Part shown: positions 3,943 through 64,000 of the stretch, piece after piece
Numbering within the stretch: the first letter of the stretch is position 1
How the letters are laid out: the number at the start of each line of letters is the position of its first letter
Source of the DNA: an uncultured Spirochaetales bacterium
GTDB taxonomy: Bacteria > Desulfobacterota_D > UBA1144
DNA length: 64,000 nucleotides
Assembly (NCBI GenBank): GCA_964440275.1
Contig: CAYTRR010000010.1
Span: 58,808 to 122,807 of the forward strand
Direction: 5' to 3'
Position numbers and translations under genes: made by a program
The notes under the pieces: model-generated
The model's database searches: none
What the model saw: the letters and a program-made list of their open reading frames with translations, nothing else
What the model was told of the DNA's origin: nothing

Positions 3943-4632
3943 ATGGTAAGAGTTAAAAGAATGAGATTAAATAAGCAGATTTATATTTTTATTTTTGCAG
4001 TTTTTTTTGTTAGTTGTTCTACAACTAAAGACATCTGGAACAAAAGACCAGATTGGATGATGCCAGACAAAAATAAAGTTGAATTGCAAGCTGACATACC
4101 TAATGACTTGATTACCGGATTCAATCTTTCTTCCTCAATAGGTCAGACAAAAAAAATGATTAAAGATAATAATTTATCGTATAAAAAAGAAAGAATAGAG
4201 AAAAGAACTAAAATAGAATCTTATAGGTTTGATGGGACTCTTTTCGATACAAAAAATCTTTTTGCATACAAAAAAGCTACATCAGCAGTGGACTTTTTTG
4301 ATGGCACCATGTTGTCATCAAGAGTATCTATAGATGCGATTAGTGATGAAAATTTAGAAGAAATAGTCAACGCAGTTTATCAGCTTTTAGTTAATTTCTA
4401 TTCTAATCCTTTATCAGAAACTTCTATTTACTCTTTTCAAACTTACAAATGGGATATCGATAATGTAGAAGTCTTTTTGTCTATAGATAAAGAACAAAAA
4501 TCTGTTCTAATATCTGAAGTTAATTCTAAAGTTGAAGAATCAAGAAGCTTCCAAGAGTTTAAAGATGAATTTATTGAAGAATATCAAACTTATGAAGAAG
4601 AAGTTCGATATGGAAAAAAAGAAAAAAGATAA
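3943..4632 (+). CDS. Hypothetical lipoprotein with an acidic C-terminus
   Basis: Signal peptide with a lipobox-like FFVSC. No recognisable domain. Confidence 0.35.
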   Translation: MVRVKRMRLNKQIYIFIFAVFFVSCSTTKDIWNKRPDWMMPDKNKVELQADIPNDLITGFNLSSSIGQTKKMIKDNNLSYKKERIEKRTKIESYRFDGTLFDTKNLFAYKKATSAVDFFDGTMLSSRVSIDAISDENLEEIVNAVYQLLVNFYSNPLSETSIYSFQTYKWDIDNVEVFLSIDKEQKSVLISEVNSKVEESRSFQEFKDEFIEEYQTYEEEVRYGKKEKR

Positions 4633-4638: not shown

Positions 4639-6600
4639 TTAATTTGCAGCTTCCACAATCTTAGCAAAATCTAACATTATTTCGTTAAGAGAATAATCTT
4701 TAGGTGTGTAAATTGCTTTAACGCCAAGATTTTTGAGTATAGCATGGTCTTCATCGGGTATGATTCCACCGACAATAAGTGGTGTAGCGTCAAAGCCTTT
4801 TTCACCAAGCAATTCCATTATTCTTGGAACTATTGATAGATGAGAACCAGATAATATACTAAGTCCAACTAAATCAACATTTTCTTGTTCCACAGTGCTT
4901 ACAATTTCTTGTGGTGTTAATCTGATACCATGATATATAACTTCCATTCCAACGTCTCTAGCACGAACTGCAATTTGTTCTGCGCCATTAGAATGACCAT
5001 CTAAGCCTGGTTTGCCTACAAGTATTTTTAAAGGCCTCCCAAGTTTCTTGTTTACTAAACCGACTTTTTCTCTTACTCCTTCTGTCGATTTATCGTCAAT
5101 GTTTGCTGAAACCGATGTACCTGTAGGTGGTCTATACTCACCAAGAACTTCTCTCAAAGTATTTGCCCACTCTCCAGTCGTAATTCCATTAGATGCACAT
5201 TGAATTGATATTGGCATTATATTCTCATTGTTTTCCAAAGCCTTTTTTAAATTTTTTAAAGATTCGTCCACAACCTTTTGATTCCTATTTTTCTTGTATT
5301 TCTTTAATGAATTTGTTTTATCTTTTGCTGTTTTTTCATCAACTTTTTGTATTGACTCATCTACTAACAAGGGAGATTTCTCAGTTTCCTTGTAGCAGTT
5401 TACACCTATAATTTCTTTTTTATTTGTTTCTATATCATATGATCTTTGTGAAAGTGAAGATACTAATGATTCTTTCATGTAACCATTTTCTAGAGCTACA
5501 GTTGTACCACCCATACCTTCAATCTTATCAATCTCTTCATATGCTTCAGATTTTAATTGATTAACTTTTTCTTGGATTATAGGAGACCCATCAAATAGGT
5601 CAGAATATTCTAATAGGTCTGTTTCATAAGCTAGGATTTGTTGAAATCTAAGCGACCATTGCTGATCCCACGGTTTTGGTAGCCCCAGTGCTTCATTCCA
5701 GCCAGGAAGTTGAATCGCTCTTGCTCTTGCATTTTTGCTTAAGGTAACAGCGAGCATCTCAATAATGATTCTGGCTACATTGTTTTCAGGTTGCTGTGCT
5801 GTTAATCCAAGAGAATTAACTTGTACACCATACCTAAACCTTCTATATTTTGGATCTTCGACTTTGTATCTTTTAAGACATATTTCGTCCCACATCTCAG
5901 TAAAAGCCCTCATTTTACATAATTCTTCAACGAACCGTATGCCGGCATTTACAAAGAAGGATATTCTTCCTACCACATTTGGAAATTCATTTTCAGAAAT
6001 TTCTCCAGAATCTTTAACTGCATCAAGTATGCATATTGCGTTTGAAAGTGAAAATGCTATTTCTTGAACCGGGGTCGCTCCTGCTTCTTGTAAGTGATAG
6101 CTACATATATTCGTAGGGTTCCATTTCGGTATATTTTTGTAGCAAAAAACAATCATATCAGAAATTAATTTAATAGATTCTTTGGGCGGATAAATATAAG
6201 TACCCCTAGATAGATATTCTTTGATAATGTCGTTCTGTGTTGTTCCTTGAAGGTTTTTTAGCTCTACATTGTTCTCTTCTGCAGTTGCACAATATAATGC
6301 AAGTAACCATGCAGCGGTTGCATTTATAGTCATCGAAGTGTTCATTTTGTCTAGAGGTATTCCATTAAAAAGAGCTAGCATATCTTCCATGTTTGAGATA
6401 GGCACCCCAACTTTCCCAACTTCACCTTCAGACAATATATGATCAGAGTCATATCCAGTTTGAGTAGGAAGATCAAAAGCTATACTTAGGCCGGTTTGTC
6501 CTTTGGATAAATTAGTCTTGAAGAGTTTGTTTGAGGCCTCAGCAGTACTATGTCCCGCATAGGTTCTCATTATCCAGGACCTGTCTTTTGTTTGACTCAT
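4639..6600 (-). CDS. Coenzyme B12-dependent acyl-CoA mutase, fused catalytic and B12-binding domains (methylmalonyl-CoA/ethylmalonyl-CoA mutase family)
   Basis: 653 aa. Mutase barrel followed by a C-terminal B12-binding domain with a DxHxxG-type motif (GLDGHSNG). Substrate class is not determinable by eye. Confidence 0.85.
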   Translation of the reverse strand: MSQTKDRSWIMRTYAGHSTAEASNKLFKTNLSKGQTGLSIAFDLPTQTGYDSDHILSEGEVGKVGVPISNMEDMLALFNGIPLDKMNTSMTINATAAWLLALYCATAEENNVELKNLQGTTQNDIIKEYLSRGTYIYPPKESIKLISDMIVFCYKNIPKWNPTNICSYHLQEAGATPVQEIAFSLSNAICILDAVKDSGEISENEFPNVVGRISFFVNAGIRFVEELCKMRAFTEMWDEICLKRYKVEDPKYRRFRYGVQVNSLGLTAQQPENNVARIIIEMLAVTLSKNARARAIQLPGWNEALGLPKPWDQQWSLRFQQILAYETDLLEYSDLFDGSPIIQEKVNQLKSEAYEEIDKIEGMGGTTVALENGYMKESLVSSLSQRSYDIETNKKEIIGVNCYKETEKSPLLVDESIQKVDEKTAKDKTNSLKKYKKNRNQKVVDESLKNLKKALENNENIMPISIQCASNGITTGEWANTLREVLGEYRPPTGTSVSANIDDKSTEGVREKVGLVNKKLGRPLKILVGKPGLDGHSNGAEQIAVRARDVGMEVIYHGIRLTPQEIVSTVEQENVDLVGLSILSGSHLSIVPRIMELLGEKGFDATPLIVGGIIPDEDHAILKNLGVKAIYTPKDYSLNEIMLDFAKIVEAAN

Positions 6601-6614
6601 CGTATGATTATACT

Positions 6615-7649
6615 CTAATCAGCTGAGCTTAGTATGTCATATCCAGTGATTGACTTACTCTTCTCCGCCATCGAATCTAAATATTCTTTATCTACTAATC
6701 CTGCAAGATGAGCTTTAGAAACTCGCATGAGAGCAATTTTTGCAGTAGCCTCATCAATCATTTCCCCAGTCTCTGGGTTGAACATTGAGCCACCACCCAT
6801 TTCATGATAAAACTCTAACTGTTGCTTAGCTTCTTTAATTTGTTGGTCGTTTGGCGTGAAGGCATTATTTGAAATAATAGCTTGTTGTGGATGAATAACC
6901 CAAGTTCCGTCCATGCCTATTAGAGCAGATCCTTCAACTTTCTTTCTTAAACCTTCTTCTACTTTTTTTACTTGCTCAGGACTATCGTCTTTTCTCCAGA
7001 GACCAAGATAGACGTTATCAATAGCATGAAGACCCGCAGCTTTAGCAGCAGTAATTACAGCTTTTTTCTCATAATAAAAGACTTCATTCTGAGCATCTAA
7101 ACAAGCACTTGGATCTACTCCTAACTCAGCTGTATAGTCAGCAATACCAAAGATCAAGCCCGCCATTCTTGAAGATGCTTTAGCCATATCAAAAGCATAT
7201 TCAAGAGCTCTAGGTCTTTCTATTAAAGCTTCAATTGCTAATCTAGTTTTCCAACCATTTTTGGATTCTAGTTCATCCAAGGTGTCAGAAACAAGTTCTA
7301 CATCTTCTGGTCCATTACATTTAGGTATTATAATCCCGTGAAACTTATCAACTGCTCCACTTAAAACGGCTTCCATATCACCTCTAAAAAATTCAGATCT
7401 TAAATTATTTGGACGTACTGTTATAACTTTTTTTCCAAAATCTAAAGTATTTAAAGCCTCAACCATTGTGGCTCTACTTTGATCGCCTTTGAACTCATAA
7501 GGACATGCGTCCTCCAGATCTGCCATTACGTGGTCAACAGGAGTTTTCTCCGCATTTGCTGCATTTGCATGTAGCTTCATATTGTGACCAGGATATGTTA
7601 ACTCAGTTCTTGGTACTACAATTCGTGTTCCTTCATCTAATATAAACAA
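6615..7649 (-). CDS. HpcH/HpaI-CitE family CoA-ester lyase, malyl-CoA/beta-methylmalyl-CoA/citramalyl-CoA lyase-like
   Basis: 344 aa. N-terminal region resembles Chloroflexus-type MclA. CitE-like core. Confidence 0.55.
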   Translation of the reverse strand: MFILDEGTRIVVPRTELTYPGHNMKLHANAANAEKTPVDHVMADLEDACPYEFKGDQSRATMVEALNTLDFGKKVITVRPNNLRSEFFRGDMEAVLSGAVDKFHGIIIPKCNGPEDVELVSDTLDELESKNGWKTRLAIEALIERPRALEYAFDMAKASSRMAGLIFGIADYTAELGVDPSACLDAQNEVFYYEKKAVITAAKAAGLHAIDNVYLGLWRKDDSPEQVKKVEEGLRKKVEGSALIGMDGTWVIHPQQAIISNNAFTPNDQQIKEAKQQLEFYHEMGGGSMFNPETGEMIDEATAKIALMRVSKAHLAGLVDKEYLDSMAEKSKSITGYDILSSAD

Positions 7650-7671
7650 TCTTGTTTCCTCCTAAAGAAAT

Positions 7672-8835
7672 CTATTTATTTAAAATTGACTTAGCAATAA
7701 CTTCGTGTTGAATTTCGCTTGTACCCTCGAAAATACTTATTACTCTGCCGTCTCTCCAGTATCTTTCAACTGGAAACTCTTTAGAGTATCCGTATCCGCC
7801 AAGTATTTGCATGGCCTCTCTCGTTATAAACTCTACAGCTTTTGCAGCTTTTACTTTTGCCATGCCAGCTTCTAAATCACATCTTTTTCCAGAGTCTTTC
7901 ATAGAGGCAGCATAGTAAACGAGTTGCCTAGCGGCCTCAAGCTCAACTGCCATCTCAGACAGTTTCATTCTAATTGCTTGATGTTCACAAATTGGCTTAC
8001 CAAATTGCTCCCTTTCTTTTGAGTACTGTAAAGCGAAATCAAAAGCAGCTTGAGATACCCCTACTGCTCTAGCAGCTGTCTGGAGCCTAGCTGATTCATA
8101 ACTAACCATTAATTGATAGAAGCCTTTGTTTTCTTCTCCACTTAAAAGATTTTCTTCGGGTACAAAAACATCTTCAAAGGCTAAGTTGTACGACCTCATA
8201 CCATGATAGCCTACTGTGGGTATTGGCTCTCCCTTTATATTAGGATGATCAATTTTTTCTCCTGGCTCTTTATCTACAAAAAATATACTTAATCCCTTAT
8301 GTCTTTTGCTTGCATCAGGATCTGTCCTTGCTAGAACTATTAAGCAATTTGAGCGATTTGCAAAAGTACACCATGCTTTTGCACCATTAAGTAGATAGCC
8401 TCCATCAGTTTTTGTAGCCTTCAGTCGCATGCTAGCAGAGTCTGAACCAGAATCAGGTTCAGTAAAGGCAGCTGCCGGTAAAATTTGGCCAGTTGCAAGC
8501 CCGGGTAAATATTTTTTTTTCTGATCTTCAGTGCCGTGTGCCATTAACAATGTCCCCATTATAACACCTCGAGTCATAACACTACCGACACTAAGCCATC
8601 CTTTGCTTAGCTCTTCAGCAACTATTGCCATTGTTATATTATCAAGACCTAAGCCGTCGTATTCTTCGGGGAACACGATGCCAAAATAACCTTGTTCAGC
8701 CATTTTTTGTATAATTTCAGTAGGTATTTCAGCATTCTTTGCATCTAATTCTGAAGCTATAGGTTCAATCTCTTCCTGAGTAAATCTTCTCACAGCATTT
8801 CTAAATTCTTCGTGGTCATCATTAACTAAAGACAT
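7672..8835 (-). CDS. Acyl-CoA dehydrogenase (short/branched-chain type)
   Basis: 387 aa, canonical ACAD N-terminal, middle and C-terminal signatures (GYGYSKEFPVERYWRD). Confidence 0.85.
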   Translation of the reverse strand: MSLVNDDHEEFRNAVRRFTQEEIEPIASELDAKNAEIPTEIIQKMAEQGYFGIVFPEEYDGLGLDNITMAIVAEELSKGWLSVGSVMTRGVIMGTLLMAHGTEDQKKKYLPGLATGQILPAAAFTEPDSGSDSASMRLKATKTDGGYLLNGAKAWCTFANRSNCLIVLARTDPDASKRHKGLSIFFVDKEPGEKIDHPNIKGEPIPTVGYHGMRSYNLAFEDVFVPEENLLSGEENKGFYQLMVSYESARLQTAARAVGVSQAAFDFALQYSKEREQFGKPICEHQAIRMKLSEMAVELEAARQLVYYAASMKDSGKRCDLEAGMAKVKAAKAVEFITREAMQILGGYGYSKEFPVERYWRDGRVISIFEGTSEIQHEVIAKSILNK

Positions 8836-8981
8836 AAAATTCTCCTAATAGATAAATATTTAATGTTTAAGGCAAAACATACAGTCTTTAATTATACATT
8901 GCAATTGCTCAAATAAAAGAAAAAAGAGTCCAAATACTTATATATTTAGTGTAAAATGAATTTAAAAAGAGGGGGAATAAA

Positions 8982-9449
8982 ATGGATTTCACACATATCA
9001 ATATAGAGTTAGAAAGCGGTACAGTTAAGATTAAATTGAGAACAGATCTTGCTCCCAATCATTGCGAAAGGGTAGCTGAATTGGCGAATGAAGGTTTTTA
9101 TGATGGAGTAGTTTTTCATAGAGTAATACCAAATTTTATGGCCCAAACTGGGGATCCCACGGGAACTGGTACAGGAGGTTCTAATAAGCCAGACTTAAAG
9201 CAAGAGTTTAGCCCAGAGAACCATTTACGTGGAACAGCTTCTATGGCTAGGTCCCAAAATCCAGATTCTGCAAATTCTCAATTCTTTATATGCTTTCAAG
9301 ATTGCTCATGGCTTGACGGACAATATACAGTTTGGGGACAGGTAGAGGAAGGGATGGAACTTGTTGATGGAATCAAAAAAGGTACCGATGAAAGTGGTGT
9401 AGTAGAGAACCCTGACAAAATGATTAAAGTAACAGCAGAGAAGGAATAA
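8982..9449 (+). CDS. Peptidyl-prolyl cis-trans isomerase, cyclophilin type
   Basis: FHRVIPNFMAQTGDPTGTGTGG motif. 155 aa. Confidence 0.85.
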   Translation: MDFTHINIELESGTVKIKLRTDLAPNHCERVAELANEGFYDGVVFHRVIPNFMAQTGDPTGTGTGGSNKPDLKQEFSPENHLRGTASMARSQNPDSANSQFFICFQDCSWLDGQYTVWGQVEEGMELVDGIKKGTDESGVVENPDKMIKVTAEKE

Positions 9450-9451: not shown

Positions 9452-10015
9452 ATGGACTTCAACAAAATACCTTTCATTAGAGACAACAAATGGATAATCA
9501 CACCAGTTGTTTATGTTTCCTTTTTAGCAATTTTGTCAATTTTATTTTTATATAAAAATGCTTCACACGAATATGTTGATTATAATCAAAAAGTTATATT
9601 TGGCTTAGAGCTTAATCAAAAACACCCCGAGATTGCAGAAAAACTGAAGTACCCATTAGACTCTAAAGAGTTTGCCATAATTTCAAAAATTATTAATATG
9701 AAAAGCTTTAAATTAGCTAGAGATTCAGAATTATCATTATTGCAGAATGCAAATGTCGCTGGTATTTATGCGTTTAATTCAGAGTACAAAATCCTTGCGC
9801 TGGGCTATATGTCAAACAATGCTGAGGACTGTAGAAAACTTAGGGCTATAACAATTAGTAAATTAGGAAAACATCTAATGTTAATTGAAGACAGTTCTTT
9901 AAGCGAACAACTTTCATGGAAATCACAAGATAATTTATATACTTTTTTTAATCAATTCTCTTCAGATGGAATCGACCTAGAAAGCGTGTGTGGTTATATG
10001 ATTTCTTCAAAATAG
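9452..10015 (+). CDS. Hypothetical membrane-anchored protein
   Basis: N-terminal TM helix. No recognisable domain. Confidence 0.3.
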   Translation: MDFNKIPFIRDNKWIITPVVYVSFLAILSILFLYKNASHEYVDYNQKVIFGLELNQKHPEIAEKLKYPLDSKEFAIISKIINMKSFKLARDSELSLLQNANVAGIYAFNSEYKILALGYMSNNAEDCRKLRAITISKLGKHLMLIEDSSLSEQLSWKSQDNLYTFFNQFSSDGIDLESVCGYMISSK

Positions 10016-10101
10016 AGGTATAGATTTTCGATTATTTAGACTTTGAGTCAATTCAAAATACTTATGAGGAGCAAGAAAACATTTCGCTGTTCCCACCTTC
10101 T

Positions 10102-10770
10102 TTGGATACCCATCACTGTTTCTCAAGATATCTATTGATTAATAAATATTTAGAAACTAAAAAATCTAAATATCTGCTATGGTCGATAGAATTTGACTCA
10201 AATACCCTTATGGATCCTAATGTAATGGAAAGTATAAATTGGTGGAGAACTATAATTGATACATCAAATAAAAATGGAATCAAAGAATCCGCATTAATTA
10301 TGCTTAAAAATATTGGAATTGCTTTATTAAATTTTAGAGATACCAGTAAAGATTTTCATTACGACTCAGGTTTTGTCCATAGCTATAGAATTCCAGAACG
10401 ACCAATAATTACATTTGAAGTTCACCCACCAAGAAGATGCTTTAGACTGATAGAAAACTTCGAGAAGTTAATAGAGGATGTAAATGTAATGAAATTATCG
10501 AATAAGGATATACAGTCTCGAGTTTCTAAAAAATTTAAGATTAAAGATATAAATACTAATTTTTCTGACCCGGTCCTTATTTCCGCACAAATCATTTCCC
10601 AAACCCATAATAAGATTTCAAAACACATTAACGAAACTGACGAGTTGTTTCTAACCCCATTCTTAGCTGAAAAGATTTATTCTGATGCAGTCAACTTTAA
10701 AACTAATTTGAATTACATAGTTGATACTTTTCAAGAAGTTGATTATTGGGATCCTGACAAAAAGAGGTAA
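10102..10770 (+). CDS. Hypothetical protein
   Basis: Long ORF, no recognisable domain. The true start may be internal (MDPNVMES...). Confidence 0.3.
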   Translation: MDTHHCFSRYLLINKYLETKKSKYLLWSIEFDSNTLMDPNVMESINWWRTIIDTSNKNGIKESALIMLKNIGIALLNFRDTSKDFHYDSGFVHSYRIPERPIITFEVHPPRRCFRLIENFEKLIEDVNVMKLSNKDIQSRVSKKFKIKDINTNFSDPVLISAQIISQTHNKISKHINETDELFLTPFLAEKIYSDAVNFKTNLNYIVDTFQEVDYWDPDKKR

Positions 10771-11327
10771 GTAAGTTTCTTTATTTTGTCAGCACCAAAG
10801 TAAATTCCAATACTTATTGCAAAAAGAGTGAACCTCCTTGCAACTGAAAGGGAAGTAAAGTAAGTCATGAAGAATATATATTGGCAAGCAAACATCCACA
10901 CCATTAAGACAAAAAGCGTTAAATAGTAAAAAACTTTATATGATTGCGGATGTGTTATCGGATTATTTAAATCTGTTACTAAAGATATAATTATTATTAG
11001 GATCGATCCAAAAATTACAGGTGATAATGTGTAGCTGTAGCCTTTGAAAATTGCACTAAAAGTACATTGTCTTGCAGAACATCCGACAATTCTAGATAAA
11101 AGCGCAACAACAAAACAAGTGGATACAATTTCTAGAAAATAAAAAATAAAACTATAATTGCTTAAAGCATATTTTGAATCAAAACAATAATAAGCAATAT
11201 CATCTAAAAAAGTAGCCATAAGTACTATCAATAAAGCTCTTTTGCCAGGGATATAGTGCCTGTTGAGAGACGCAGCCATATATATTTTGTTGGAGAAGAA
11301 GAAAGAAGCTAGTAGATTCAAGAACAT
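10743..11327 (-). CDS. Hypothetical polytopic membrane protein
   Basis: Four to five TM segments. No recognisable motif. Confidence 0.3.
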   Translation of the reverse strand: MFLNLLASFFFSNKIYMAASLNRHYIPGKRALLIVLMATFLDDIAYYCFDSKYALSNYSFIFYFLEIVSTCFVVALLSRIVGCSARQCTFSAIFKGYSYTLSPVIFGSILIIIISLVTDLNNPITHPQSYKVFYYLTLFVLMVWMFACQYIFFMTYFTSLSVARRFTLFAISIGIYFGADKIKKLTYLFLSGSQ

Positions 11328-12624: not shown

Positions 12625-13227
12625 CTAAAGATCATGTAGACCACATTCTCTCTTTTCATCTGCTTTTGTTGGATCGTAGTAATCATATTCATTTATAAGG
12701 TTATTCTCTTTCATATAAACATCTAAATCTTGATCAGACCAATTATAAAAAGGACTTAATTTTAATAATCCTTCATCTGTTTGACTAATTATATCTATGC
12801 TGTCCCTAAAAGTAGTTTGACCTTTCCTTAGATTAGTAATCCAGATATCAGGTTTAATCTCATACATAGCTCTCCTAAACGGTTCTAATTTAACTTGTTC
12901 AGTGAATACTTTGTGTAAAGGATTTTCTATTCCTGGTATTTCTCCTAAAAACTTCTCTTTAGGTTTGTAAACATTTATATTTAATTTTAATTCAGAAATT
13001 ATTTTTTTAGCATATACGTAAATTGCTTTTGTATTAAACCCAGTATCACACCATACAATCTTAATATCCTCTTTTGCTTGTACACATAAATACAATATTG
13101 CTATTTCGTAGGGTCTAAAGTTAGTAGTAAGTACTGGATTCTTGGCATTTTCTAAACCCCATTTGATTATTTCAGCAGGACTTTTTTCTTGTAAGGTCTG
13201 ATTTAAAGTGTATATATCTTTACTCAT
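12625..13227 (-). CDS. cysH: Phosphoadenosine phosphosulfate (PAPS) reductase, thioredoxin-dependent
   Basis: Aligns by eye to E. coli CysH (CDTGF..., KLEPFRRAM, WITNLRKGQ, KRECGLH C-terminal motif). Lacks the CC...CxxC Fe-S cysteines of APS reductases. Confidence 0.8.
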   Translation of the reverse strand: MSKDIYTLNQTLQEKSPAEIIKWGLENAKNPVLTTNFRPYEIAILYLCVQAKEDIKIVWCDTGFNTKAIYVYAKKIISELKLNINVYKPKEKFLGEIPGIENPLHKVFTEQVKLEPFRRAMYEIKPDIWITNLRKGQTTFRDSIDIISQTDEGLLKLSPFYNWSDQDLDVYMKENNLINEYDYYDPTKADEKRECGLHDL

Positions 13228-13233
13228 TTTATT

Positions 13234-14232
13234 CTATCTTAGCAGTGATTCGGCTATTATATAAGATATTACTACACAACTAATTGGACCCATAATCCAA
13301 AAACTTAAAATACTGGAAACACTAGTATTTTTTAAAGTTTGGGAAAAACCTGTACTCGCACAAGAAAATCCTATAATTCCAGCTGTAACTATTTCTGCTA
13401 ATGAAATTGGTATTCCATAAAAAGATGCAACAAAAAGCAGGATTCCACCAGTAAGATGAACCGATATTGCTCTAATCAGACATATGTCAGTTATTTCTTT
13501 TGCTACTGTTTCAAGTATTCTGCCTCCAAACAATAGTGCACCAAGAGCCATAAAAAAACCTGCAAGCAAAGCCCCATCACTGGCAGATACGAGATTAATT
13601 GCAACTATTGGACCTGCAGCATTTGCAGAATTATTGGATCCAGCAAAAAATGCAATAAAGCAACCAGATATTACCAAGGAATATTTCAAAATTTTATTAA
13701 TCCTTTCTTCATCGGAATGACTGGCAAGCCAATTGATAATTTTTAAATAAAGATGTTTCCCAATCAAATAATTGCTGAACCATAAAATAAGAGGTGTAGC
13801 AATCCACCATATTACTATTTCTGTTACTTTAAATAAATTTATTTCTTTTAAAGCCAGACCTATTCCAATCATTGTACAAACAACAATATGTGTCGTAGCA
13901 ATGGGTATTTTTAATAAGTTAGCTATAAAAATACAAACAACTGGCAATGCAAGGATCAAGAAAATAAATTTAATACCCAATTTGTGAGCAGATAAATCAA
14001 CTGATACTATTTCTTTCCCTACAGTGTTTACAACTTTTTCTCCACCAAATGCTGCTCCAAGAAAAACAAAAATAAATATTAAAGAGACGGATGCCAGCTT
14101 TGATATCGTATTTGAACCATATGCTGTTGCCATTGATGCAGCAGCATTATTTGCTCCAATGTTGAACGATAAAGCAACTGCTAGTATAGAGATTAATAAA
14201 GTTTCCATATTGATTAAAATGAAAATATACAT
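13234..14232 (-). CDS. PiT-family inorganic anion permease, probable CysP-like sulfate permease
   Basis: Two GANxxANA-like repeats (NIGANNAAASMATAYGS and GSNNSANAAGPIV). Sits inside the sulfate assimilation cluster like B. subtilis CysP. Confidence 0.6.
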   Translation of the reverse strand: MYIFILINMETLLISILAVALSFNIGANNAAASMATAYGSNTISKLASVSLIFIFVFLGAAFGGEKVVNTVGKEIVSVDLSAHKLGIKFIFLILALPVVCIFIANLLKIPIATTHIVVCTMIGIGLALKEINLFKVTEIVIWWIATPLILWFSNYLIGKHLYLKIINWLASHSDEERINKILKYSLVISGCFIAFFAGSNNSANAAGPIVAINLVSASDGALLAGFFMALGALLFGGRILETVAKEITDICLIRAISVHLTGGILLFVASFYGIPISLAEIVTAGIIGFSCASTGFSQTLKNTSVSSILSFWIMGPISCVVISYIIAESLLR

Positions 14233-14382
14233 CTTTTAATCAATTTTAGAAATAAAATTGATAAAAAAATCCAAATTTACTTGAAAAGCTCCTTAAATTA
14301 ATGTTTTCTTATTAAGTAATAGTCAAGGAAATGTGTAAAAACTGAGTTTTTGGCTATTTTTGAGTTTTTATTCTAACTTAAG
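14233..14382. promoter_or_regulatory. Divergent intergenic region between the PiT permease/cysH operon and cysI-cysD-cysN. Probable shared promoter/regulatory region of the sulfate assimilation cluster.
   Basis: 150 nt AT-rich spacer between divergently transcribed, functionally linked operons. No specific motif identified. Confidence 0.25.
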
Positions 14383-25451: not shown

Positions 25452-26633
25452 ATGTCTACAAAAGTAGTTATAAGTGAGCCATTACGAACAGCAATAGGTA
25501 CATTTGGAGGTACTCTTCAAGATGTTCCTGCAGTCGAATTAGGCGTAACAGTTGTAAAAGAAATACTAAATAGAACTGGAGTCGAAGCCACGCAAATTGA
25601 TGAATTCATCATGGGCAACATTTTAGGCGCAGGACAAGGACAAAATCCTGCACGTCAAGTTGCACTTGGAGCAGGGCTTGATTACGATACTCCATCTTAT
25701 ACATTAAATAGGGTTTGTGCATCAGGTGTTCAATCAGTTGCTAATGCAGCACAAGCAATAAAAGCAGGAGACGCGGATTTAGCTATTGCAGGTGGTATAG
25801 AAAATATGAACCTTGCACCTTTCTTGCTGCCTAAAGCAAGATACGGTTACAGAATGGCACTAGAAGCAAAAGATACCGTCCTTGATGGAATGGTTTACGA
25901 TGGACTTTGGGACATTTTTAATAACTATCATATGGGTATTACAGCAGAAAATCTTGCTGATCAATACAACATAAGCAGAGAAGACCAAGACAAGTTTGCA
26001 ATTGATAGTCAAGGAAAAGCAAAAAAAGCAATTAGGTCAGGTGTTTTCAAAAAAGAAATCGTCCCCGTACAACTTAAAAAGGGTGTTTTTGATATTGATG
26101 AGCATCCAAGAGAAGTCTCTATGGCTGCATTAAGCAGACTGAAACCCGTATTCACCGCTGAAGGAACTGTTACGGCAGGTAATGCATCAGGTATTAACGA
26201 TGGAGCAGCTGCAATGTTTGTTTCATCCGAAGAAAAAGCTAAAGAGTTAGGACTAAATCCAGTAGGAGAAATAATTTCTTTTGCTGTTGCTGGAGTTGAT
26301 CCTTCAATTATGGGAATTGCCCCAGTTTCCGCAATGAACAAAGCTCTTGCAAAAGCTGGATTGACAATCGATGATATAGATTTAGTTGAGTTGAACGAAG
26401 CATTTGCTGCTCAAGCTTTAGCTGTATTAAGTGATTTTCCCATTCCTGAAGAAAAATTAAATGTTAACGGTGGAGCAGTAGCGCTTGGTCACCCAATTGG
26501 CGCATCTGGGACTATATTGATTGTTAAACTACTTCATGAAATGCAACGAAGAAAGGTAAAAAGAGGTTTAGTTTCATTGTGTGTTGGTGGTGGTCAGGGT
26601 ATTGCGATGGTTATAGAAAACCCTAACGCATAG
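25452..26633 (+). CDS. Acetyl-CoA C-acetyltransferase (thiolase II)
   Basis: Thiolase active-site Cys (NRVCASG) and a C-terminal GHP.GASG...CVGGGQG. Confidence 0.9.
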   Translation: MSTKVVISEPLRTAIGTFGGTLQDVPAVELGVTVVKEILNRTGVEATQIDEFIMGNILGAGQGQNPARQVALGAGLDYDTPSYTLNRVCASGVQSVANAAQAIKAGDADLAIAGGIENMNLAPFLLPKARYGYRMALEAKDTVLDGMVYDGLWDIFNNYHMGITAENLADQYNISREDQDKFAIDSQGKAKKAIRSGVFKKEIVPVQLKKGVFDIDEHPREVSMAALSRLKPVFTAEGTVTAGNASGINDGAAAMFVSSEEKAKELGLNPVGEIISFAVAGVDPSIMGIAPVSAMNKALAKAGLTIDDIDLVELNEAFAAQALAVLSDFPIPEEKLNVNGGAVALGHPIGASGTILIVKLLHEMQRRKVKRGLVSLCVGGGQGIAMVIENPNA

Positions 26634-52349: not shown

Positions 52350-52390
52350 TAAACCCTATCAATTAAAACAGGGTTTATTACTTTGTTTTT

Positions 52391-53809: not shown

Positions 53810-53848
53810 GAAACACCTCCTAAATATTTCATCTGAAAAAAATTTTAT

Positions 53849-54223
<375 letters not shown>

Positions 54224-54307
54224 TTATGATACATTTAAAAGAAATATTACGAAACACACATCTCTTTTTCTATTTATATAACAGCAAAATTCGTGCCAAG
54301 AATGTTA

Positions 54308-56032: not shown

Positions 56033-56037
56033 ATTAT

Positions 56038-58657: not shown

Positions 58658-58661
58658 CTTA

Positions 58662-61707: not shown

Positions 61708-61893
61708 ATGATTGGACCCATTGGTCTTACAGAGCTTATCGTAATATTATTAATAGTCTTGCTTGTTTTTGGTCCAAGCAAACTAGGAGATATAGGATCT
61801 TCTTTGGGCAAAGGTATTTCAGGTTTTAAAAAGGCTATGAAAGATGAAAATTCAAAAGAAGAAAATAGCGATAACAACAAAGAAGAAAACTAA
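61708..61893 (+). CDS. tatA: Twin-arginine translocase subunit TatA/E
   Basis: N-terminal TM helix with FGP hinge followed by an amphipathic helix. Confidence 0.85.
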
Positions 61894-62315
61894 ATTTTTT
61901 GTGCTAATTCAATCAGAACCCCATTCATACTTTTAGGATGAGCAAATGCTACTATAGTGTTATTTATGCCTTCCCTGGGTTTTTCATCAATCATTTCAAT
62001 TCCTTGAGATTGCAAGTGTTTAATTCCTTTTAAAATGTCTTCGACCAGATAGCAAACGTGATGCATTCCTTCTCCTCTTTTTTCTAAGAATTTAGTAATT
62101 GAAGAATCATCAACTACTGGTTCTAGTAATTCTATTGCAGTAGTTAGAGAGGCATTTTCTGGAACGAGCATAATTGCTCTTACTCCTTGGTCAACAGAAG
62201 TCTCATCGTGTTCAATTTTCAAACCAAGTGTATCTACATAAAGTTTAGCAGTTTTTTCAGCATCATATACCGCTATACCAATGTGATACATATTTACAGT
62301 TTTAAAGATATCCAT
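61890..62315 (-). CDS. Methylmalonyl-CoA epimerase (VOC/glyoxalase family)
   Basis: 141 aa VOC fold with MCE-like N-terminus (HIGIAV.D...LG). Confidence 0.65.
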
Positions 62316-62348
62316 GGCATATAAATTTAATATATAACTAAGGATTCA

Positions 62349-63758
62349 TCAAATTATTTTATATTTATCGATAGAGTTATCTTCGTTGATGACGATGTCC
62401 ATATTATTGATAACCTTGTTGGACTTGTTTAAATCAATTATAGAGTTCATGGTGCTAATATAATTAGAGTTTAAATTGATTTTGACCTTTGTTTTTTTTG
62501 AATGAGAAATTTGAACTATTTCTCTTATTACCTCGTAGCAAACAATCTCTTTCTTTGTTACCAAGCCAGAGCCAAAACAATGATTGCAGCTTTCGCTGAC
62601 GAGAGACGAAGTCCTAGTTCCAACTTTTTGTCTGGTCATTTCTATTATCCCAAATTTAGAAATTGGCAGAATCGTATGTTTTGATTTATCTTCTTGCATA
62701 GCACTTTTGAACGTGTTAAGTAATTTCTTTTTTTGACTACTTTTTTGTAGATCAATAAAATCTATTAGAACAATCCCATTTAAATTTCTAAGAATAATTT
62801 GTTTTGCTATTTCTTTTGCAGCAGCAACATTAACAGTAAAATTAGATTCTTTTTTTCTATTAAGGCTTCTGCCTGAATTTACATCAATTACAGTCAATCC
62901 CTCTTTTTCTTCTATAAGCAAGAAGGAACCATTCTTTAAGTTTAATTTTTTATGAAATATTTTTTCTATTTCCTTTTCTATACCGTGTTTCCTAAATATG
63001 TTGTCTTTTTTATTTGTTGTTTTTAATTTAATCACTGATTTATTCTTTTCTAATTTTTTCTTGAAATACGTATGGATTCTTCTTGAATCAAATTCAATTT
63101 CTTTAGTTTCACTGTTTAGAAATTCTCTTAAAATACTATCTAGAATATTATCCTCTTGATGTAAGATGCCAACCGACTTATTTTTTTTAAAAAGTTGCAT
63201 AATCATCTTCCATCTTTTTTTTGTTTTGGATATATCTTCTCTTATGTCTTTTAATGTTTCGTTCTCACATGATGTCCGTAAAATAATCCCAAGCCCTTTT
63301 GTAGCCATTTTTTTGAGAGACTTAAGCCTCTTTCGAGTTTTTTCATCACTGATTCTTTTGGAAATACCTAGAAAACCAGGCTTGCTTAACACCACACAAA
63401 ATTTTGATGGTAACGTTATAAAGTCTGATACCTTAGGTGCTTTCCTAGGATCATAATCACTAATTCCTTGAACCATTACAAAGTTATCTTGAACTATTTC
63501 ATAGACATGTAATTCATCAGCGCCTACTTCATCTTTTATGGGATTATTTTTTGATAGAAAGGCTGATTTACCAAAGCCAATATCAACGAATGAAGCTTCA
63601 ATGCCAGAGGCATTAGGATTCTTTTCCGCTTTATAGATATTTCCTCTTATTGAAATTTGTTCTCTGTTGTTGTCTATAAAGAAATTCCTTAACCGTGAAT
63701 TGTCAACAACCGCAACTCTTATTTCATCTAGAGTCTCACTAATAAGAATTTTTCTCAA
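62349..63758 (-). CDS. rng: Ribonuclease G/E family endoribonuclease
   Basis: S1 domain near the N-terminus and an RNase E/G catalytic core. 469 aa. Confidence 0.8.
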   Translation of the reverse strand: MRKILISETLDEIRVAVVDNSRLRNFFIDNNREQISIRGNIYKAEKNPNASGIEASFVDIGFGKSAFLSKNNPIKDEVGADELHVYEIVQDNFVMVQGISDYDPRKAPKVSDFITLPSKFCVVLSKPGFLGISKRISDEKTRKRLKSLKKMATKGLGIILRTSCENETLKDIREDISKTKKRWKMIMQLFKKNKSVGILHQEDNILDSILREFLNSETKEIEFDSRRIHTYFKKKLEKNKSVIKLKTTNKKDNIFRKHGIEKEIEKIFHKKLNLKNGSFLLIEEKEGLTVIDVNSGRSLNRKKESNFTVNVAAAKEIAKQIILRNLNGIVLIDFIDLQKSSQKKKLLNTFKSAMQEDKSKHTILPISKFGIIEMTRQKVGTRTSSLVSESCNHCFGSGLVTKKEIVCYEVIREIVQISHSKKTKVKINLNSNYISTMNSIIDLNKSNKVINNMDIVINEDNSIDKYKII

Positions 63759-64000
63759 TTATTTTTTCTAAGAAGATTAAATATTGTTTCAGCAACTTCT
63801 TCTGGTTCTAAAGCACCTTTTTTTAATCTATCCATTAATCCTTTGATCTTTTTCGTGTCTTTTATTTTTTCAAGTTCTGATTTGATTTTTCTATCTAAAA
63901 CCGAATCAATTTCAGCAATCTGTCTCTGCTTCTTCTTGTTTACCAAATTTCCATTATTACTTTCAAATTCTACAAATGATTCAATTTCTTCTACAAGTTC
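63755..64000 (-). CDS. Hypothetical protein, C-terminal part. The reading frame is open to the 3' edge of the window.
   Basis: The frame upstream of the ORF-track start continues without a stop to nt 64000 (...ELVEEIESFVEFESNNGNLVNKKKQRQ...). Confidence 0.3.
   Translation of the reverse strand, partial: ELVEEIESFVEFESNNGNLVNKKKQRQIAEIDSVLDRKIKSELEKIKDTKKIKGLMDRLKKGALEPEEVAETIFNLLRKNN

What the first reader, a model, noticed from the sequence alone, without database searches (positions are those of the whole stretch)
4639..8835. B12 acyl-CoA mutase, malyl-CoA-lyase-like and acyl-CoA dehydrogenase arranged as an operon
The three consecutive minus-strand genes encode a fused mutase of a size (653 aa) closer to ethylmalonyl-CoA mutase than to canonical MCM, a Chloroflexus MclA-like HpcH/CitE lyase, and an ACAD. 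This combination recalls the ethylmalonyl-CoA pathway (Ecm, Mcd, Mcl1) or methylaspartate and citramalyl-CoA routes rather than simple propionate catabolism. A methylmalonyl-CoA epimerase lies at 61890 and a thiolase at 25452. Ccr and mesaconyl-CoA hydratase are not in the window.
Basis: partly seen in the sequence, partly recalled or inferred. Interest (0 to 1): 0.5.

Follow-up and report, generated by a model that had tools for sequence, protein, structure and literature searches.

The report
Ethylmalonyl-CoA pathway core operon, Dadabacteria

Summary
Three minus-strand genes (ACAD 7672-8835, HpcH/CitE lyase 6615-7649, fused B12 mutase 4639-6600) lie 22 and 14 nt apart.

- **Mutase:** it is an ethylmalonyl-CoA mutase (Ecm/MeaA), not MCM. 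It is 58-61% identical to MeaA of EMC-pathway bacteria, against 34-36% to MCM, and matches the Ecm group at every active-site column checked.
- **ACAD:** it falls in the methylsuccinyl-CoA dehydrogenase (Mcd) clade (NJ bootstrap 95/100). It keeps Arg252, Arg421 and the Ala285/Phe287 methyl pocket but lacks the ~170-aa N-terminal extension.
- **Lyase:** it is only ~30% identical to Mcl1 yet keeps all catalytic residues. Its 66%-identical Binatia orthologue sits in a cluster of mesaconyl-CoA hydratase (Mch), long Mcd, lyase, epimerase, Ecm and MeaB.
- **Accessory genes:** a methylmalonyl/ethylmalonyl-CoA epimerase (61890) and a MeaB chaperone (cut by the window's right edge) lie in one co-directional cluster.
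- **Ccr:** a bona fide crotonyl-CoA carboxylase/reductase (Ccr) occurs in marine Dadabacteria MAGs (genus TMED58).
- **Gap:** Mch was not found.

The closest known arrangement is the actinomycete emc operon. This is a new variant of a known system, of moderate interest.

The parts
7672..8835 (-). Short-form methylsuccinyl-CoA dehydrogenase-like ACAD (387 aa), first gene of the operon
   Evidence: Pfam finds the ACAD N, M and C domains. The best PDB hit is Paracoccus Mcd 6es9, residues 168-550, E 7e-108. It keeps Ser248, Arg252, Ala285, Phe287, Thr418, Arg421 and Glu535 of PdMCD; Arg376 is His and Glu380 is Ser. It groups with both long Mcd clades at NJ bootstrap 95/100. There is no room for an N-terminal extension, since only 146 nt separate it from the upstream divergent gene.
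6615..7649 (-). CitE/HpcH-superfamily CoA-ester lyase (344 aa, TTG start), inferred beta-methylmalyl-CoA/L-malyl-CoA lyase of a divergent clade
   Evidence: Pfam HpcH_HpaI. The best PDB hits are malyl-CoA lyases 4l9y and 5ugr, at 30% and 29% identity. Asp44, Glu46, Asp47, Arg79, Glu144, Asp171, Asp299 and the Phe-Thr-Pro hinge match MCLR Asp42, Glu44, Asp45, Arg76, Glu141, Asp168, Asp299 and Phe263-Pro265. The 66%-identical orthologue sits in the Binatia EMC cluster.
4639..6600 (-). Ethylmalonyl-CoA mutase (Ecm/MeaA), fused catalytic and B12-binding domains (653 aa), last gene of the operon
   Evidence: Pfam MM_CoA_mutase plus B12-binding. Sources name the homologues 'protein meaA' or '(2R)-ethylmalonyl-CoA mutase'. 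It is 58-61% identical to MeaA of Paracoccus, Ruegeria, Methylobacterium and Streptomyces, against 34-36% to MCM. At 36 of 37 surveyed active-site columns it has the residue shared by the Paracoccus, Ruegeria, Methylobacterium and Streptomyces MeaA; the 37th (MCM position 85) varies within that group. The DxHxxG cobalt-ligand motif (DGHSNG) is present.
8836..9030 (-). 5' leader and possible promoter of the operon; AGGAG ribosome-binding site at 8846-8842
   Evidence: Sequence read. A weak sigma-70-like match lies at 9028-9000 (9 of 12), which is not above chance.
61890..62315 (-). Methylmalonyl/ethylmalonyl-CoA epimerase (141 aa), accessory enzyme that supplies (2R)-ethylmalonyl-CoA
   Evidence: NCBIfam TIGR03081, 142.5 bits against a cut-off of 114.95. 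Pfam Glyoxalase_4.
63755..64000 (-). 3' end (last 81 codons) of meaB, the G-protein chaperone of B12 acyl-CoA mutases, cut by the window edge; co-directional with RNase G and the epimerase
   Evidence: Contig L175 is 99.93% identical to window 51890-64000 and continues beyond it. The full 318-aa gene passes TIGR00750 MeaB (305.4 bits against 240.75). The window's last frame translates to its C-terminus.
25452..26633 (+). Acetyl-CoA C-acetyltransferase (thiolase), a candidate entry enzyme (PhaA-like); its link to the operon is only inferred
   Evidence: Pfam Thiolase_N and Thiolase_C. NCBIfam TIGR01930, 476 bits against a cut-off of 240.

Best explanation
The window comes from a streamlined marine Dadabacterium (GC about 32%). 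I read the three genes as one operon, mcd-like, then mcl-like, then ecm, encoding the central carbon-skeleton steps of the ethylmalonyl-CoA (EMC) pathway.

**Proposed sequence of reactions**
1. Ccr, encoded elsewhere in the genome, makes (2S)-ethylmalonyl-CoA from crotonyl-CoA and CO2.
2. The epimerase at 61890 converts it to the 2R form.
3. The 653-aa AdoCbl enzyme (Ecm), serviced by the MeaB chaperone encoded next to the epimerase, rearranges it to (2S)-methylsuccinyl-CoA.
4. The 387-aa flavoenzyme oxidises that to mesaconyl-CoA.
5. A hydratase not yet located makes beta-methylmalyl-CoA.
6. The 344-aa Mg-dependent lyase cleaves it to glyoxylate and propionyl-CoA, and probably also condenses glyoxylate with acetyl-CoA to malyl-CoA.

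**Shown here:** family and clade membership of all three proteins, conservation of catalytic and substrate-pocket residues, operon compactness, conservation of the gene group across Dadabacteria, and presence of the epimerase, MeaB and (in related MAGs) Ccr.

**Inferred:** the actual substrates of the ACAD and the lyase, the existence of a hydratase, and that the full pathway runs for acetyl-CoA assimilation.
For: **Mutase**
- It is 58-61% identical over its full length to MeaA/Ecm of Paracoccus, Ruegeria, Methylobacterium and Streptomyces, against 34-36% to MCM.
- It carries the Ecm-type residue at every column that separates Ecm from MCM.
- NCBI and JGI name the close homologues meaA or (2R)-ethylmalonyl-CoA mutase.

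**ACAD**
- Its best solved relative is Mcd 6es9.
- The essential Arg252, plus Arg421, Ser248, Thr418 and the Ala285/Phe287 C2-methyl pocket described for PdMCD (PMC5798300), are all conserved.
- NJ bootstrap is 95/100 for the clade that joins the Dadabacterial ACADs, one further short relative (P0388) and both long Mcd clades.
- It is 45-47% identical to Mcd genes adjacent to ccr and ecm in 14 proteobacterial loci.

**Lyase**
- All Mg-binding and catalytic residues and the lid hinge of malyl-CoA lyases are present. The catalytic residue is Asp, not the Glu of the Mcl2 thioesterase.
- The orthologue (66% identity) lies between a long Mcd and an epimerase-Ecm-MeaB run, next to Mch and an adenosyltransferase, in Binatia. 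All EMC-pathway genes, including ccr and ecm, have been reported in most Binatota orders.

**Context**
- ACAD plus lyase are adjacent in every Dadabacterial locus examined, with the mutase adjacent or about 4 kb away in all but one.
- The epimerase passes its equivalog cut-off.
- MeaB passes its equivalog cut-off and lies in the same co-directional cluster.
- Ccr passes TIGR01751 (499 against 378.55 bits) in MAG TMED58 and is present in two syntenic marine MAGs. TMED58 is a Dadabacteria genus.
- The same enzyme set forms a genetically validated operon in Streptomyces: ccr-ecm-mml-mch-mcd (PMC4606968).
Against: - No mesaconyl-CoA hydratase was found in the window, in its 8.3 kb extension, or in any Dadabacterial locus.
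- Ccr was shown in related MAGs, not in the same genome as this window.
- The ACAD lacks the N-terminal extension that all 14 context-validated proteobacterial Mcd carry. It also has His instead of Arg376.
- The lyase is far from every characterised lyase, at 29-35% identity, and all NCBIfam lyase equivalogs fail their cut-offs.
- Propionyl-CoA carboxylase, MCM, Mcl2, PhaB and crotonase were not examined.
- The trees are neighbour-joining only.
Confidence: 0.68

Rival explanations
1. The trio is a Ccr-independent catabolic or salvage module. It would degrade ethylmalonyl-CoA (for example from promiscuous carboxylation of butyryl-CoA), or C5 dicarboxylates such as methylsuccinate or mesaconate taken up from seawater, to glyoxylate plus propionyl-CoA. 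It would not be part of an assimilatory EMC cycle.
For: The operon is not linked to ccr, which in TMED58 lies next to trpS. No mch lies nearby. Two tandem acyl-CoA ligases of unknown specificity lie close to the meaB-epimerase cluster. The genome is streamlined and heterotrophic (PMC8115339).
Against: Ccr that passes its equivalog cut-off is retained in genomes of about 1 Mb in this lineage, which is hard to explain without an EMC pathway. The enzymes and reactions would be the same ones, so this differs in physiology rather than in mechanism.
Confidence: 0.14
2. The ACAD is an ordinary short-chain acyl-CoA dehydrogenase, for example butyryl-CoA to crotonyl-CoA feeding Ccr, or a general beta-oxidation enzyme. 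On this reading it is not a methylsuccinyl-CoA dehydrogenase, and the true Mcd lies elsewhere.
For: It has canonical ACAD length (387 aa) with no N-terminal extension. The best NCBIfam hits are acryloyl-CoA reductase and glutaryl-CoA dehydrogenase, both below cut-off. Arg376 of PdMCD is not conserved.
Against: It retains Arg252 (essential in PdMCD), Arg421 and the shifted Phe287/Ala285 pocket, none of which generic ACADs such as 2dvl have. NJ bootstrap places it with the Mcd clades at 95/100. It is always adjacent to the lyase in Dadabacteria.
Confidence: 0.09
3. The lyase works on another 3-hydroxyacyl-CoA, such as (S)-citramalyl-CoA as in itaconate degradation or the 3-hydroxypropionate bi-cycle, or in a methylaspartate-cycle-like route. 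The association with the mutase would then reflect a different pathway.
For: The NCBIfam scores for RipC/Ccl and CitE (about 104 bits) equal or exceed that for malyl-CoA lyase (84 bits), and all are below cut-off. CitE-superfamily lyases are promiscuous (PMC3832036). JGI labels the clade citrate lyase beta.
Against: No CoA-transferase, itaconyl-CoA hydratase, mesaconyl-CoA transferase or methylaspartate genes are nearby. The solved relatives rank malyl-CoA lyases first. The Binatia orthologue sits among Mch, Mcd, epimerase, Ecm and MeaB.
Confidence: 0.06
4. This is simple propionate or odd-chain catabolism: the mutase is a methylmalonyl-CoA mutase, the lyase a citrate-lyase beta subunit and the ACAD a beta-oxidation enzyme, adjacent by chance.
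For: The epimerase and MeaB also serve the methylmalonyl pathway. Tyr89 and Arg207 are conserved.
Against: Identity to MCM is only 34-36%, and the protein carries the residue shared by the reference MeaA sequences at every column where those differ from MCM. The PRK09426 MCM equivalog scores 508 bits against a cut-off of 876. No citD, citF or citC are present. The gene group is conserved across Dadabacteria.
Confidence: 0.03

Closest known systems
Actinomycete emc operon (Streptomyces ccr1-ecm-mml-mch-mcd; PMC4606968)
   Same: Ecm, a CitE-type beta-methylmalyl-CoA/malyl-CoA lyase and an ACAD of canonical length are co-transcribed. In S. tsukubaensis, disrupting ccr1 (which inactivates the operon) abolishes growth on acetate, and the whole operon restores it. 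I re-found the arrangement in Streptomyces sp. BHT-5-2.
   Different: - The gene order is inverted here: mcd-mcl-ecm rather than ecm-mml-mch-mcd.
- ccr and mch are not in the operon.
- The Streptomyces Mcd belongs to the FadE3-like ACAD clade and lacks Arg252, whereas the Dadabacterial enzyme groups with the proteobacterial Mcd.
- The lyases share only 32-33% identity.
Proteobacterial EMC pathway enzymes Ecm, Mcd and Mcl1 (Rhodobacter sphaeroides, Paracoccus denitrificans, Methylobacterium extorquens)
   Same: - Ecm is about 60% identical, with an identical active-site signature.
- The Mcd core is 46% identical, with the same carboxylate-binding arginines and methyl pocket.
- The lyase shares all catalytic residues with MCLR.
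   Different: - Proteobacterial Mcd are 555-564 aa, with a ~170-aa N-terminal extension that stabilises a dimer. The enzyme here is 387 aa.
- Arg376 and Glu380 are replaced by His and Ser.
- The lyase is only 30% identical, below the >=50% that defines the MCLR cluster in PMC3832036.
- In Proteobacteria ccr-ecm-mcd are often clustered, with the lyase elsewhere.
Binatia (Binatota) EMC gene cluster
   Same: It holds the closest non-Dadabacterial orthologues of the lyase (63-66% identity). That lyase sits next to Ecm, and MeaB and the epimerase are present. All EMC-pathway genes have been reported in most orders of that phylum.
   Different: Binatia carry a long (545 aa) Mcd of the 8ciw type, a two-domain Mch and an adenosyltransferase in the cluster. 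Dadabacteria carry a short ACAD and no hydratase nearby.
Haloarchaeal lyase-MaoC-ACAD-MaoC cluster (Halomarina sp. PSR21 plasmid, L094)
   Same: It has a short ACAD (46.7% identical, with Ser248, Arg252, His376, Thr418 and Arg421 as here) next to a CitE-type lyase (35% identical).
   Different: It has small MaoC hydratase genes on both sides of the ACAD and no Ecm nearby. Its function is uncharacterised.

Membership tests
Ethylmalonyl-CoA mutase (Ecm/MeaA, EC 5.4.99.63) | Single polypeptide with an acyl-CoA mutase TIM-barrel and a C-terminal B12-binding domain carrying the DxHxxG cobalt ligand | tested here: met
   Pfam PF01642 plus PF02310. DGHSNG is present, and His610, Asp608 and Lys604 equivalents are conserved. 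It lacks the MCM N-terminal arm, with the alignment starting at MCM residue 81.
Ethylmalonyl-CoA mutase (Ecm/MeaA, EC 5.4.99.63) | Closer to validated-lineage Ecm than to MCM, ICM or HCM | tested here: met
   Identity is 58-61% to MeaA of Paracoccus, Ruegeria, Methylobacterium and Streptomyces; 34-36% to P. shermanii, E. coli and Mesorhizobium MCM; and much lower scores to HCM and IcmF.
Ethylmalonyl-CoA mutase (Ecm/MeaA, EC 5.4.99.63) | Ecm-type substrate-pocket residues that differ from MCM, with the carboxylate binders Tyr89 and Arg207 retained | tested here: met
   At MCM positions 208, 245, 288-289, 328-335, 362, 366 and 611 the residues are G, L, VN, GVQVNSLG, A, P and S, as in the Paracoccus, Ruegeria, Methylobacterium and Streptomyces MeaA sequences. 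Tyr89, Arg207, Gln197 and His244 are kept. The signature was derived from my own alignment, not from the 2008 Ecm paper, which I could not read.
Ethylmalonyl-CoA mutase (Ecm/MeaA, EC 5.4.99.63) | Converts (2R)-ethylmalonyl-CoA to (2S)-methylsuccinyl-CoA with little activity on methylmalonyl-CoA | not testable with these tools
   Needs an enzyme assay.
(2S)-Methylsuccinyl-CoA dehydrogenase (Mcd, EC 1.3.8.12) | ACAD core with the catalytic Glu535 equivalent | tested here: met
   Glu is conserved in the IFEGTSEIQ motif.
(2S)-Methylsuccinyl-CoA dehydrogenase (Mcd, EC 1.3.8.12) | Cluster of three arginines (Arg252, Arg376, Arg421) that binds the terminal carboxylate | tested here: inconclusive
   Arg252 (essential in PdMCD) and Arg421 are present, with their partners Ser248 and Thr418. 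Arg376 is His and Glu380 is Ser in all five Dadabacterial sequences.
(2S)-Methylsuccinyl-CoA dehydrogenase (Mcd, EC 1.3.8.12) | C2-methyl cavity made by Ala285, with the aromatic residue shifted to position 287 | tested here: met
   The motif AAAFTEP gives Ala285 and Phe287, as in PdMCD. Generic ACADs have Phe or Tyr at position 285.
(2S)-Methylsuccinyl-CoA dehydrogenase (Mcd, EC 1.3.8.12) | N-terminal extension of about 170 residues that mimics a dimer-dimer interface (homodimeric enzyme) | tested here: not met
   The protein is 387 aa and aligns to PdMCD 168-550 only. Only 146 nt lie upstream. All 14 ccr/ecm-linked proteobacterial Mcd are 555-564 aa. The protein is therefore Mcd-like in its core, not a canonical Mcd.
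(2S)-Methylsuccinyl-CoA dehydrogenase (Mcd, EC 1.3.8.12) | Phylogenetic grouping with characterised Mcd | tested here: met
   NJ bootstrap is 95/100 for the Dadabacterial clade plus P0388 plus both long Mcd clades (6es9 type and 8ciw type). It falls outside the two long clades, which group together at 69/100. Only neighbour-joining was used.
Malyl-CoA/beta-methylmalyl-CoA lyase (Mcl1 / MCLR type, EC 4.1.3.24) | CitE-like TIM barrel with Mg ligands (Glu141, Asp168), water-binding Glu44 and Asp45, and Arg76 held by Asp42 | tested here: met
   Glu144, Asp171, Glu46, Asp47, Arg79 and Asp44 occupy these positions.
Malyl-CoA/beta-methylmalyl-CoA lyase (Mcl1 / MCLR type, EC 4.1.3.24) | C-terminal lid domain with a Phe-x-Pro hinge and a catalytic Asp (Glu in the Mcl2 thioesterase) | tested here: met
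   Phe264-Thr265-Pro266 and Asp299 (GEMIDEA) are present.
Malyl-CoA/beta-methylmalyl-CoA lyase (Mcl1 / MCLR type, EC 4.1.3.24) | Sequence membership of the MCLR cluster (>=50% identity to MCLR) or the MCLC cluster (>=57%), as delimited in PMC3832036 | tested here: not met
   Identity is 30% to 4l9y and 29% to 5ugr, with only partial alignment to the Chloroflexus type. All NCBIfam lyase equivalogs score below cut-off. It is a separate clade shared with Binatia.
Malyl-CoA/beta-methylmalyl-CoA lyase (Mcl1 / MCLR type, EC 4.1.3.24) | Cleaves beta-methylmalyl-CoA and L-malyl-CoA | not testable with these tools
   Supported only by gene context.
Complete ethylmalonyl-CoA pathway | Crotonyl-CoA carboxylase/reductase present in the genome | tested here: inconclusive
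   Ccr is not in the window. It is present and above the TIGR01751 cut-off in marine Dadabacteria MAG TMED58, and syntenic copies occur in SAT211 and ERR599130_bin.109. Homologues at 70-73% identity are named Ccr in 'Thermodesulfobacteriota' MAGs. Presence in the same genome as the window was not shown.
Complete ethylmalonyl-CoA pathway | Mesaconyl-CoA hydratase (Mch) present | tested here: inconclusive
   No Mch was found in the window, in its 8.3 kb extension, or in about 15 Dadabacterial loci. The family is too divergent for a motif scan. A metagenome scan returned 27 small MaoC genes, none assignable to Dadabacteria. Whole genomes could not be read.
Complete ethylmalonyl-CoA pathway | Epimerase and the B12 chaperone MeaB present | tested here: met
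   TIGR03081 is passed. TIGR00750 is passed on the contig that continues the window.
Complete ethylmalonyl-CoA pathway | PhaA/PhaB/crotonase entry steps, and Mcl2, propionyl-CoA carboxylase and MCM exit steps | not tested
   A thiolase is present. An SDR just outside the window is ambiguous between FabG and PhaB. The others were not searched.

The most novel reading that the evidence does not exclude
Dadabacteria may run an EMC pathway built from non-canonical parts. The first would be a methylsuccinyl-CoA dehydrogenase of ordinary ACAD length, probably tetrameric, that branches outside both extension-bearing Mcd clades. That would show the N-terminal extension is not required for Mcd chemistry and may be a later acquisition. 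The second would be a third type of malyl-CoA/beta-methylmalyl-CoA lyase, currently mislabelled citrate lyase beta. The third would be a hydratase unrelated to, or unrecognisably diverged from, known Mch. If so, KEGG-style surveys systematically miss this pathway in an abundant oligotrophic ocean lineage that would then depend on external B12 for central carbon assimilation.
Probability: 0.25. Interest if true: 0.55.

Novelty: new variant of a known kind. Interest (0 to 1): 0.4.

Why it matters
- **Ecology.** Marine Dadabacteria are cosmopolitan, genome-streamlined heterotrophs. The main published genome survey of the marine lineage does not mention CoA-ester, glyoxylate or B12 metabolism, and no paper in the library links them to the EMC pathway. 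An EMC core kept in a genome of roughly 1 Mb implies that C2/acetyl-CoA assimilation, and hence cobalamin supply, matters for their ecology.
- **Enzymology.** A short ACAD that groups with Mcd and keeps its substrate pocket is a natural test of whether the Mcd N-terminal extension is needed for specificity or only for quaternary structure.
- **Annotation.** The lyase clade carries only generic or citrate-lyase-beta labels in the sources that name it, so pathway surveys that rely on such labels would probably score mcl as absent. The short ACAD fails every NCBIfam equivalog cut-off.

Tried and rejected
- **Searches that found nothing in the window**
  - No cobalamin riboswitch or other Rfam element lies near the operon; the only hit in the window is one tRNA.
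  - The promoter and terminator scan gave no signal above shuffled controls.
- **Neighbouring genes as the missing hydratase**
  - The conserved ~200-aa ORF convergent with the mutase (3943-4632) was considered as a hydratase or chaperone. It has a signal peptide and lipobox and no Pfam hit, so it is probably an unrelated lipoprotein.
  - The ORFs at 9452-11327 are membrane or unknown proteins, not hydratases.
- **The search for mch**
  - tblastn with the Binatia two-domain Mch, and with the Streptomyces and Halomarina small MaoC proteins, found nothing in the window or in the Dadabacterial loci.
  - The plasmid collection yielded almost no Mch references.
  - Mch sequences are too divergent for a clean motif.
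  - An AT-biased GDT[IL]Y motif scan of metagenome contigs returned 27 small MaoC genes. They sit next to unrelated CitE-like genes, show no synteny with Dadabacteria, and carry no taxonomic label.
- **Linking Ccr to the window's own genome.** Look-ups of close mutase homologues returned only unnamed ENA and JGI contigs. The Ccr loci share no genes with the window.
- **Literature.** I could not retrieve the 2008 Ecm paper that defines the signature sequences, so I derived the signature from my own alignment.
- **Not run.** I judged structure prediction and fold search unnecessary, because sequence-level matches to solved structures were already unambiguous.

Full report
**Observation.** The window (GC about 32%) carries three consecutive minus-strand ORFs at exactly the reported coordinates: 7672-8835 (387 aa), 6615-7649 (344 aa, TTG start) and 4639-6600 (653 aa). 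Pfam assigns them to the acyl-CoA dehydrogenases, the HpcH/HpaI-CitE lyases, and the methylmalonyl-CoA-mutase family with a B12-binding domain. The gaps are 22 and 14 nt. AGGAG and AGGAGG sites precede the first two genes. The upstream neighbour (a cyclophilin) is divergent and the downstream neighbour is convergent. The three genes therefore form a compact unit. The promoter and terminator scan adds nothing above chance. No riboswitch is present.

**Source organism.** Close homologues of the mutase (77-87% identity) and lyase (up to 95%) come from marine metagenomes and from MAGs labelled 'Thermodesulfobacteriota' or 'Candidatus Dadabacteria'. Contigs from such MAGs share the window's gene order. 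An ENA contig of 202 kb is 99.93% identical to the last 12 kb of the window. The window is therefore from a pelagic marine Dadabacterium, a lineage described as genome-streamlined (PMC8115339).

**The mutase is an Ecm.**
- Against annotated replicons, identity is bimodal. It is 58-61% over the full length to 'protein meaA' of Paracoccus, Ruegeria/Tritonibacter, Methylobacterium and Streptomyces (and of Leptospira). It is 34-43% to everything called methylmalonyl-CoA mutase.
- I aligned these references with P. shermanii MutB (1req). The query has the residue shared by the Paracoccus, Ruegeria, Methylobacterium and Streptomyces MeaA sequences at 36 of 37 active-site columns; the remaining column (MCM position 85) varies within that group.
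- It differs from MCM at positions 208 (N to G), 245 (M to L), 288-289, 328-335 (H-x-Q-T-S-G-W-S to G-V-Q-V-N-S-L-G), 362, 366 and 611.
- Tyr89, Gln197, Arg207, Tyr243, His244 and the Lys604/Asp608/His610 cobalt-ligand triad are conserved.
- The MCM equivalog model fails its cut-off (508 against 876 bits). NCBI and JGI name the close homologues meaA or (2R)-ethylmalonyl-CoA mutase.

**The ACAD is an Mcd-clade enzyme without the Mcd extension.**
- Its best solved relative is Paracoccus Mcd (6es9, E 7e-108). It aligns only to residues 168-550, that is, without the ~170-residue N-terminal extension that defines Mcd structurally.
- Of the residues that PMC5798300 identifies as determining specificity, it keeps Ser248, Arg252 (mutation of which inactivates PdMCD), the Ala285/Phe287 C2-methyl pocket, Thr418, Arg421 and Glu535.
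- Arg376 and its partner Glu380 are His and Ser, in all five Dadabacterial sequences.
- A library-wide HMMER search shows that its nearest relatives outside its own clade are mostly proteins of 520-570 aa that align through their C-terminal ~385 residues.
- In NJ trees the Dadabacterial short ACADs are monophyletic (100/100). Together with one other short protein they join the two long Mcd clades (6es9 type and 8ciw type) at 95/100. They branch outside those two clades, which group together at 69/100.
- All 14 Mcd genes found next to ccr and ecm in proteobacterial loci are 555-564 aa, including loci at 28-33% GC from marine Alphaproteobacteria. The short form is therefore not simply a by-product of genome reduction.

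**The lyase is a divergent Mcl-type enzyme.**
- Its best solved relatives are the Rhodobacter and Methylobacterium malyl-CoA/beta-methylmalyl-CoA lyases, at 30% and 29% identity. The Chloroflexus type, human CLYBL, RipC and CitE follow.
- Every residue that PMC3832036 lists as catalytic or metal-binding is present: Asp44, Glu46, Asp47, Arg79, Glu144, Asp171 and the lid-domain Asp299 with the Phe-Thr-Pro hinge.
- The catalytic residue is Asp, not the Glu typical of the Mcl2 thioesterase group.
- It belongs to neither the MCLR nor the MCLC cluster as those were delimited, and no NCBIfam lyase equivalog passes its cut-off. Sources call it 'CoA ester lyase' or 'citrate lyase beta'.
- Function is inferred from context. 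The next-closest orthologues (63-66% identity) are from Binatia. There the gene lies in a cluster of adenosyltransferase, mesaconyl-CoA hydratase, long Mcd, lyase, tandem epimerase, Ecm and MeaB. A genomic survey of Binatota reports all EMC-pathway genes, including ccr and ecm, in most orders of that phylum.

**Conservation and accessory genes.**
- ACAD plus lyase are adjacent in every Dadabacterial locus examined.
  - In pelagic marine contigs and one further contig (L015), the mutase follows directly.
  - In sponge-associated Mycalebacterium and one related contig (L016), the mutase lies about 4 kb away.
  - One contig (L014) shows no mutase within 10 kb.
- In the window, 61890-62315 passes the methylmalonyl-CoA epimerase equivalog. 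The Ecm literature describes this enzyme as a promiscuous ethylmalonyl/methylmalonyl-CoA epimerase; that statement rests on my own recollection of the 2008 paper.
- Directly upstream lie RNase G and a gene cut by the window edge (63755-64000), all co-directional and with overlapping stop and start codons. On the 99.93%-identical contig the cut gene is a 318-aa MeaB that passes TIGR00750.

**Ccr.** An AT-biased degenerate scan for the Ccr motif WGY[ED][TS]xxGS[FY] across GTDB species genomes returned 64 loci, 60 of them genuine ccr. Three low-GC marine MAGs (TMED58, SAT211 and ERR599130_bin.109) share a trpS-ccr arrangement. The TMED58 protein scores 499 bits against the 378.55-bit cut-off of the Ccr equivalog. 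TMED58 is a Dadabacteria genus. A further contig with a 72%-identical Ccr (L091, from a JGI metagenome) keeps trpS upstream and the same downstream genes. Ccr is therefore present in the lineage, though I could not show it in the same genome as the window.

**What is missing.** I found no mesaconyl-CoA hydratase in the window, in its extension, or in any Dadabacterial locus. The attempts to fish one out of public collections failed or could not be assigned taxonomically. The hydration step is chemically required between the ACAD and the lyase, so its gene is either elsewhere in the genome or unrecognised. The exit steps (propionyl-CoA carboxylase, MCM, Mcl2) were not examined.

**Comparison with the known.**
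- The closest described arrangement is the actinomycete emc operon, ccr1-ecm-mml-mch-mcd. In S. tsukubaensis, disrupting ccr1 (which inactivates the whole operon) abolishes growth on acetate, and the complete operon restores it (PMC4606968). I re-found the arrangement in a Streptomyces replicon.
- That operon also has an ACAD of ordinary length. However, its ACAD belongs to the FadE3-like clade and lacks Arg252, so it is not the same solution as in Dadabacteria.
- A haloarchaeal plasmid carries lyase-MaoC-short ACAD-MaoC, with an ACAD 46.7% identical to the one here.
- Relative to all of these, the Dadabacterial version differs in several ways. The gene order is inverted (mcd-mcl-ecm), and ccr and mch are unlinked. 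Its Mcd-like enzyme has a proteobacterial-type core with no extension, and its lyase clade is shared only with Binatia.

**Verdict.** The MCM/CitE refutation condition is not met. This is a known pathway module in a lineage where it has not been described, with two structurally non-canonical components. It is of moderate interest: useful for marine carbon and B12 ecology, for Mcd enzymology and for annotation, but not a new kind of system. My confidence is about 0.9 that the mutase is an Ecm and about 0.65 each for the proposed ACAD and lyase reactions. It is about 0.55 that a complete EMC pathway operates.

Noticed in passing
window 61890-64000 (-) and L175 7205-10426: meaB (B12-mutase G-protein chaperone), an RNase E/G gene and the methylmalonyl/ethylmalonyl-CoA epimerase are co-directional, with overlapping or near-abutting ends. 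The chaperone gene is cut by the window's right edge. An RNase G sitting between two mutase-accessory genes is an odd pairing.
   Followed up: yes
window 3943-4632 (+); L001 11964-12569; L007 5873-6490; L015 13090-13704; L016 5819-6439; L014 11122-11721: A fast-evolving ~200-aa protein with a signal peptide or lipobox and no Pfam match lies convergent to the 3' end of the mutase in every Dadabacterial locus that has one, even where the rest of the neighbourhood is rearranged. In L014, which has no mutase nearby, it follows the lyase. Its function is unknown.
   Followed up: partly
window 54308-57765 (-): Two tandem AMP-forming acyl-CoA ligase paralogues (574 and 575 aa, about 80% nucleotide identity to each other) of unassigned specificity lie 4 kb from the meaB-epimerase cluster. 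They could activate the pathway's substrates.
   Followed up: no
L091 299-4402 (JGI 3300010938 contig carrying a Ccr 72% identical to that of the Dadabacteria MAG TMED58): A 1367-aa ORF combines malate synthase and isocitrate lyase domains, a fused glyoxylate-shunt protein. It lies 5 kb from ccr, so this contig's organism appears to carry both acetate-assimilation routes.
   Followed up: no
L012 7956-10944 (Leptospira interrogans replicon); L033, L037, L039, L074: Leptospira carries an Ecm-type mutase (59.5% identical, annotated only as 'methylmalonyl-CoA mutase family protein'). It is followed by a gene annotated 'protein kinase' that matches MeaB. Leptospiraceae MAGs also carry ccr.
   Followed up: partly
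L093 4486-5646 (Streptomyces emc operon ACAD): The Streptomyces emc-operon 'mcd' is a 401-aa ACAD of the FadE3/4iv6 clade. It lacks Arg252 and the Ala285/Phe287 pocket, so actinomycete and proteobacterial Mcd appear to be different ACAD lineages recruited to the same step.
   Followed up: partly
L094 8001-11253 (Halomarina sp. PSR21 plasmid): A haloarchaeal cluster reads CitE-type lyase, small MaoC, short ACAD (46.7% identical to the window's) and second MaoC, with no Ecm nearby. It may be an uncharacterised methylsuccinate or mesaconate route.
   Followed up: no
L149 559-2553 and about 25 other marine low-GC metagenome loci (L096-L170): Small MaoC hydratases 44-61% identical to the Streptomyces emc-operon Mch are common on marine contigs of about 30-37% GC. 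At least nine of them lie next to distant CitE-like lyases. Their taxonomic origin is unknown.
   Followed up: partly
window 46056-47039 (+): A phage-integrase-family tyrosine recombinase gene lies between carD and the arginine-biosynthesis genes. It is probably a XerC/D-type housekeeping recombinase rather than a mobile element, but I did not check.
   Followed up: no
window 12625-18234: This is an assimilatory sulfate-reduction cluster: PAPS reductase-family genes, sulfite reductase, a CysN-like GTPase and a PHO4-family transporter. It appears ordinary.
   Followed up: no
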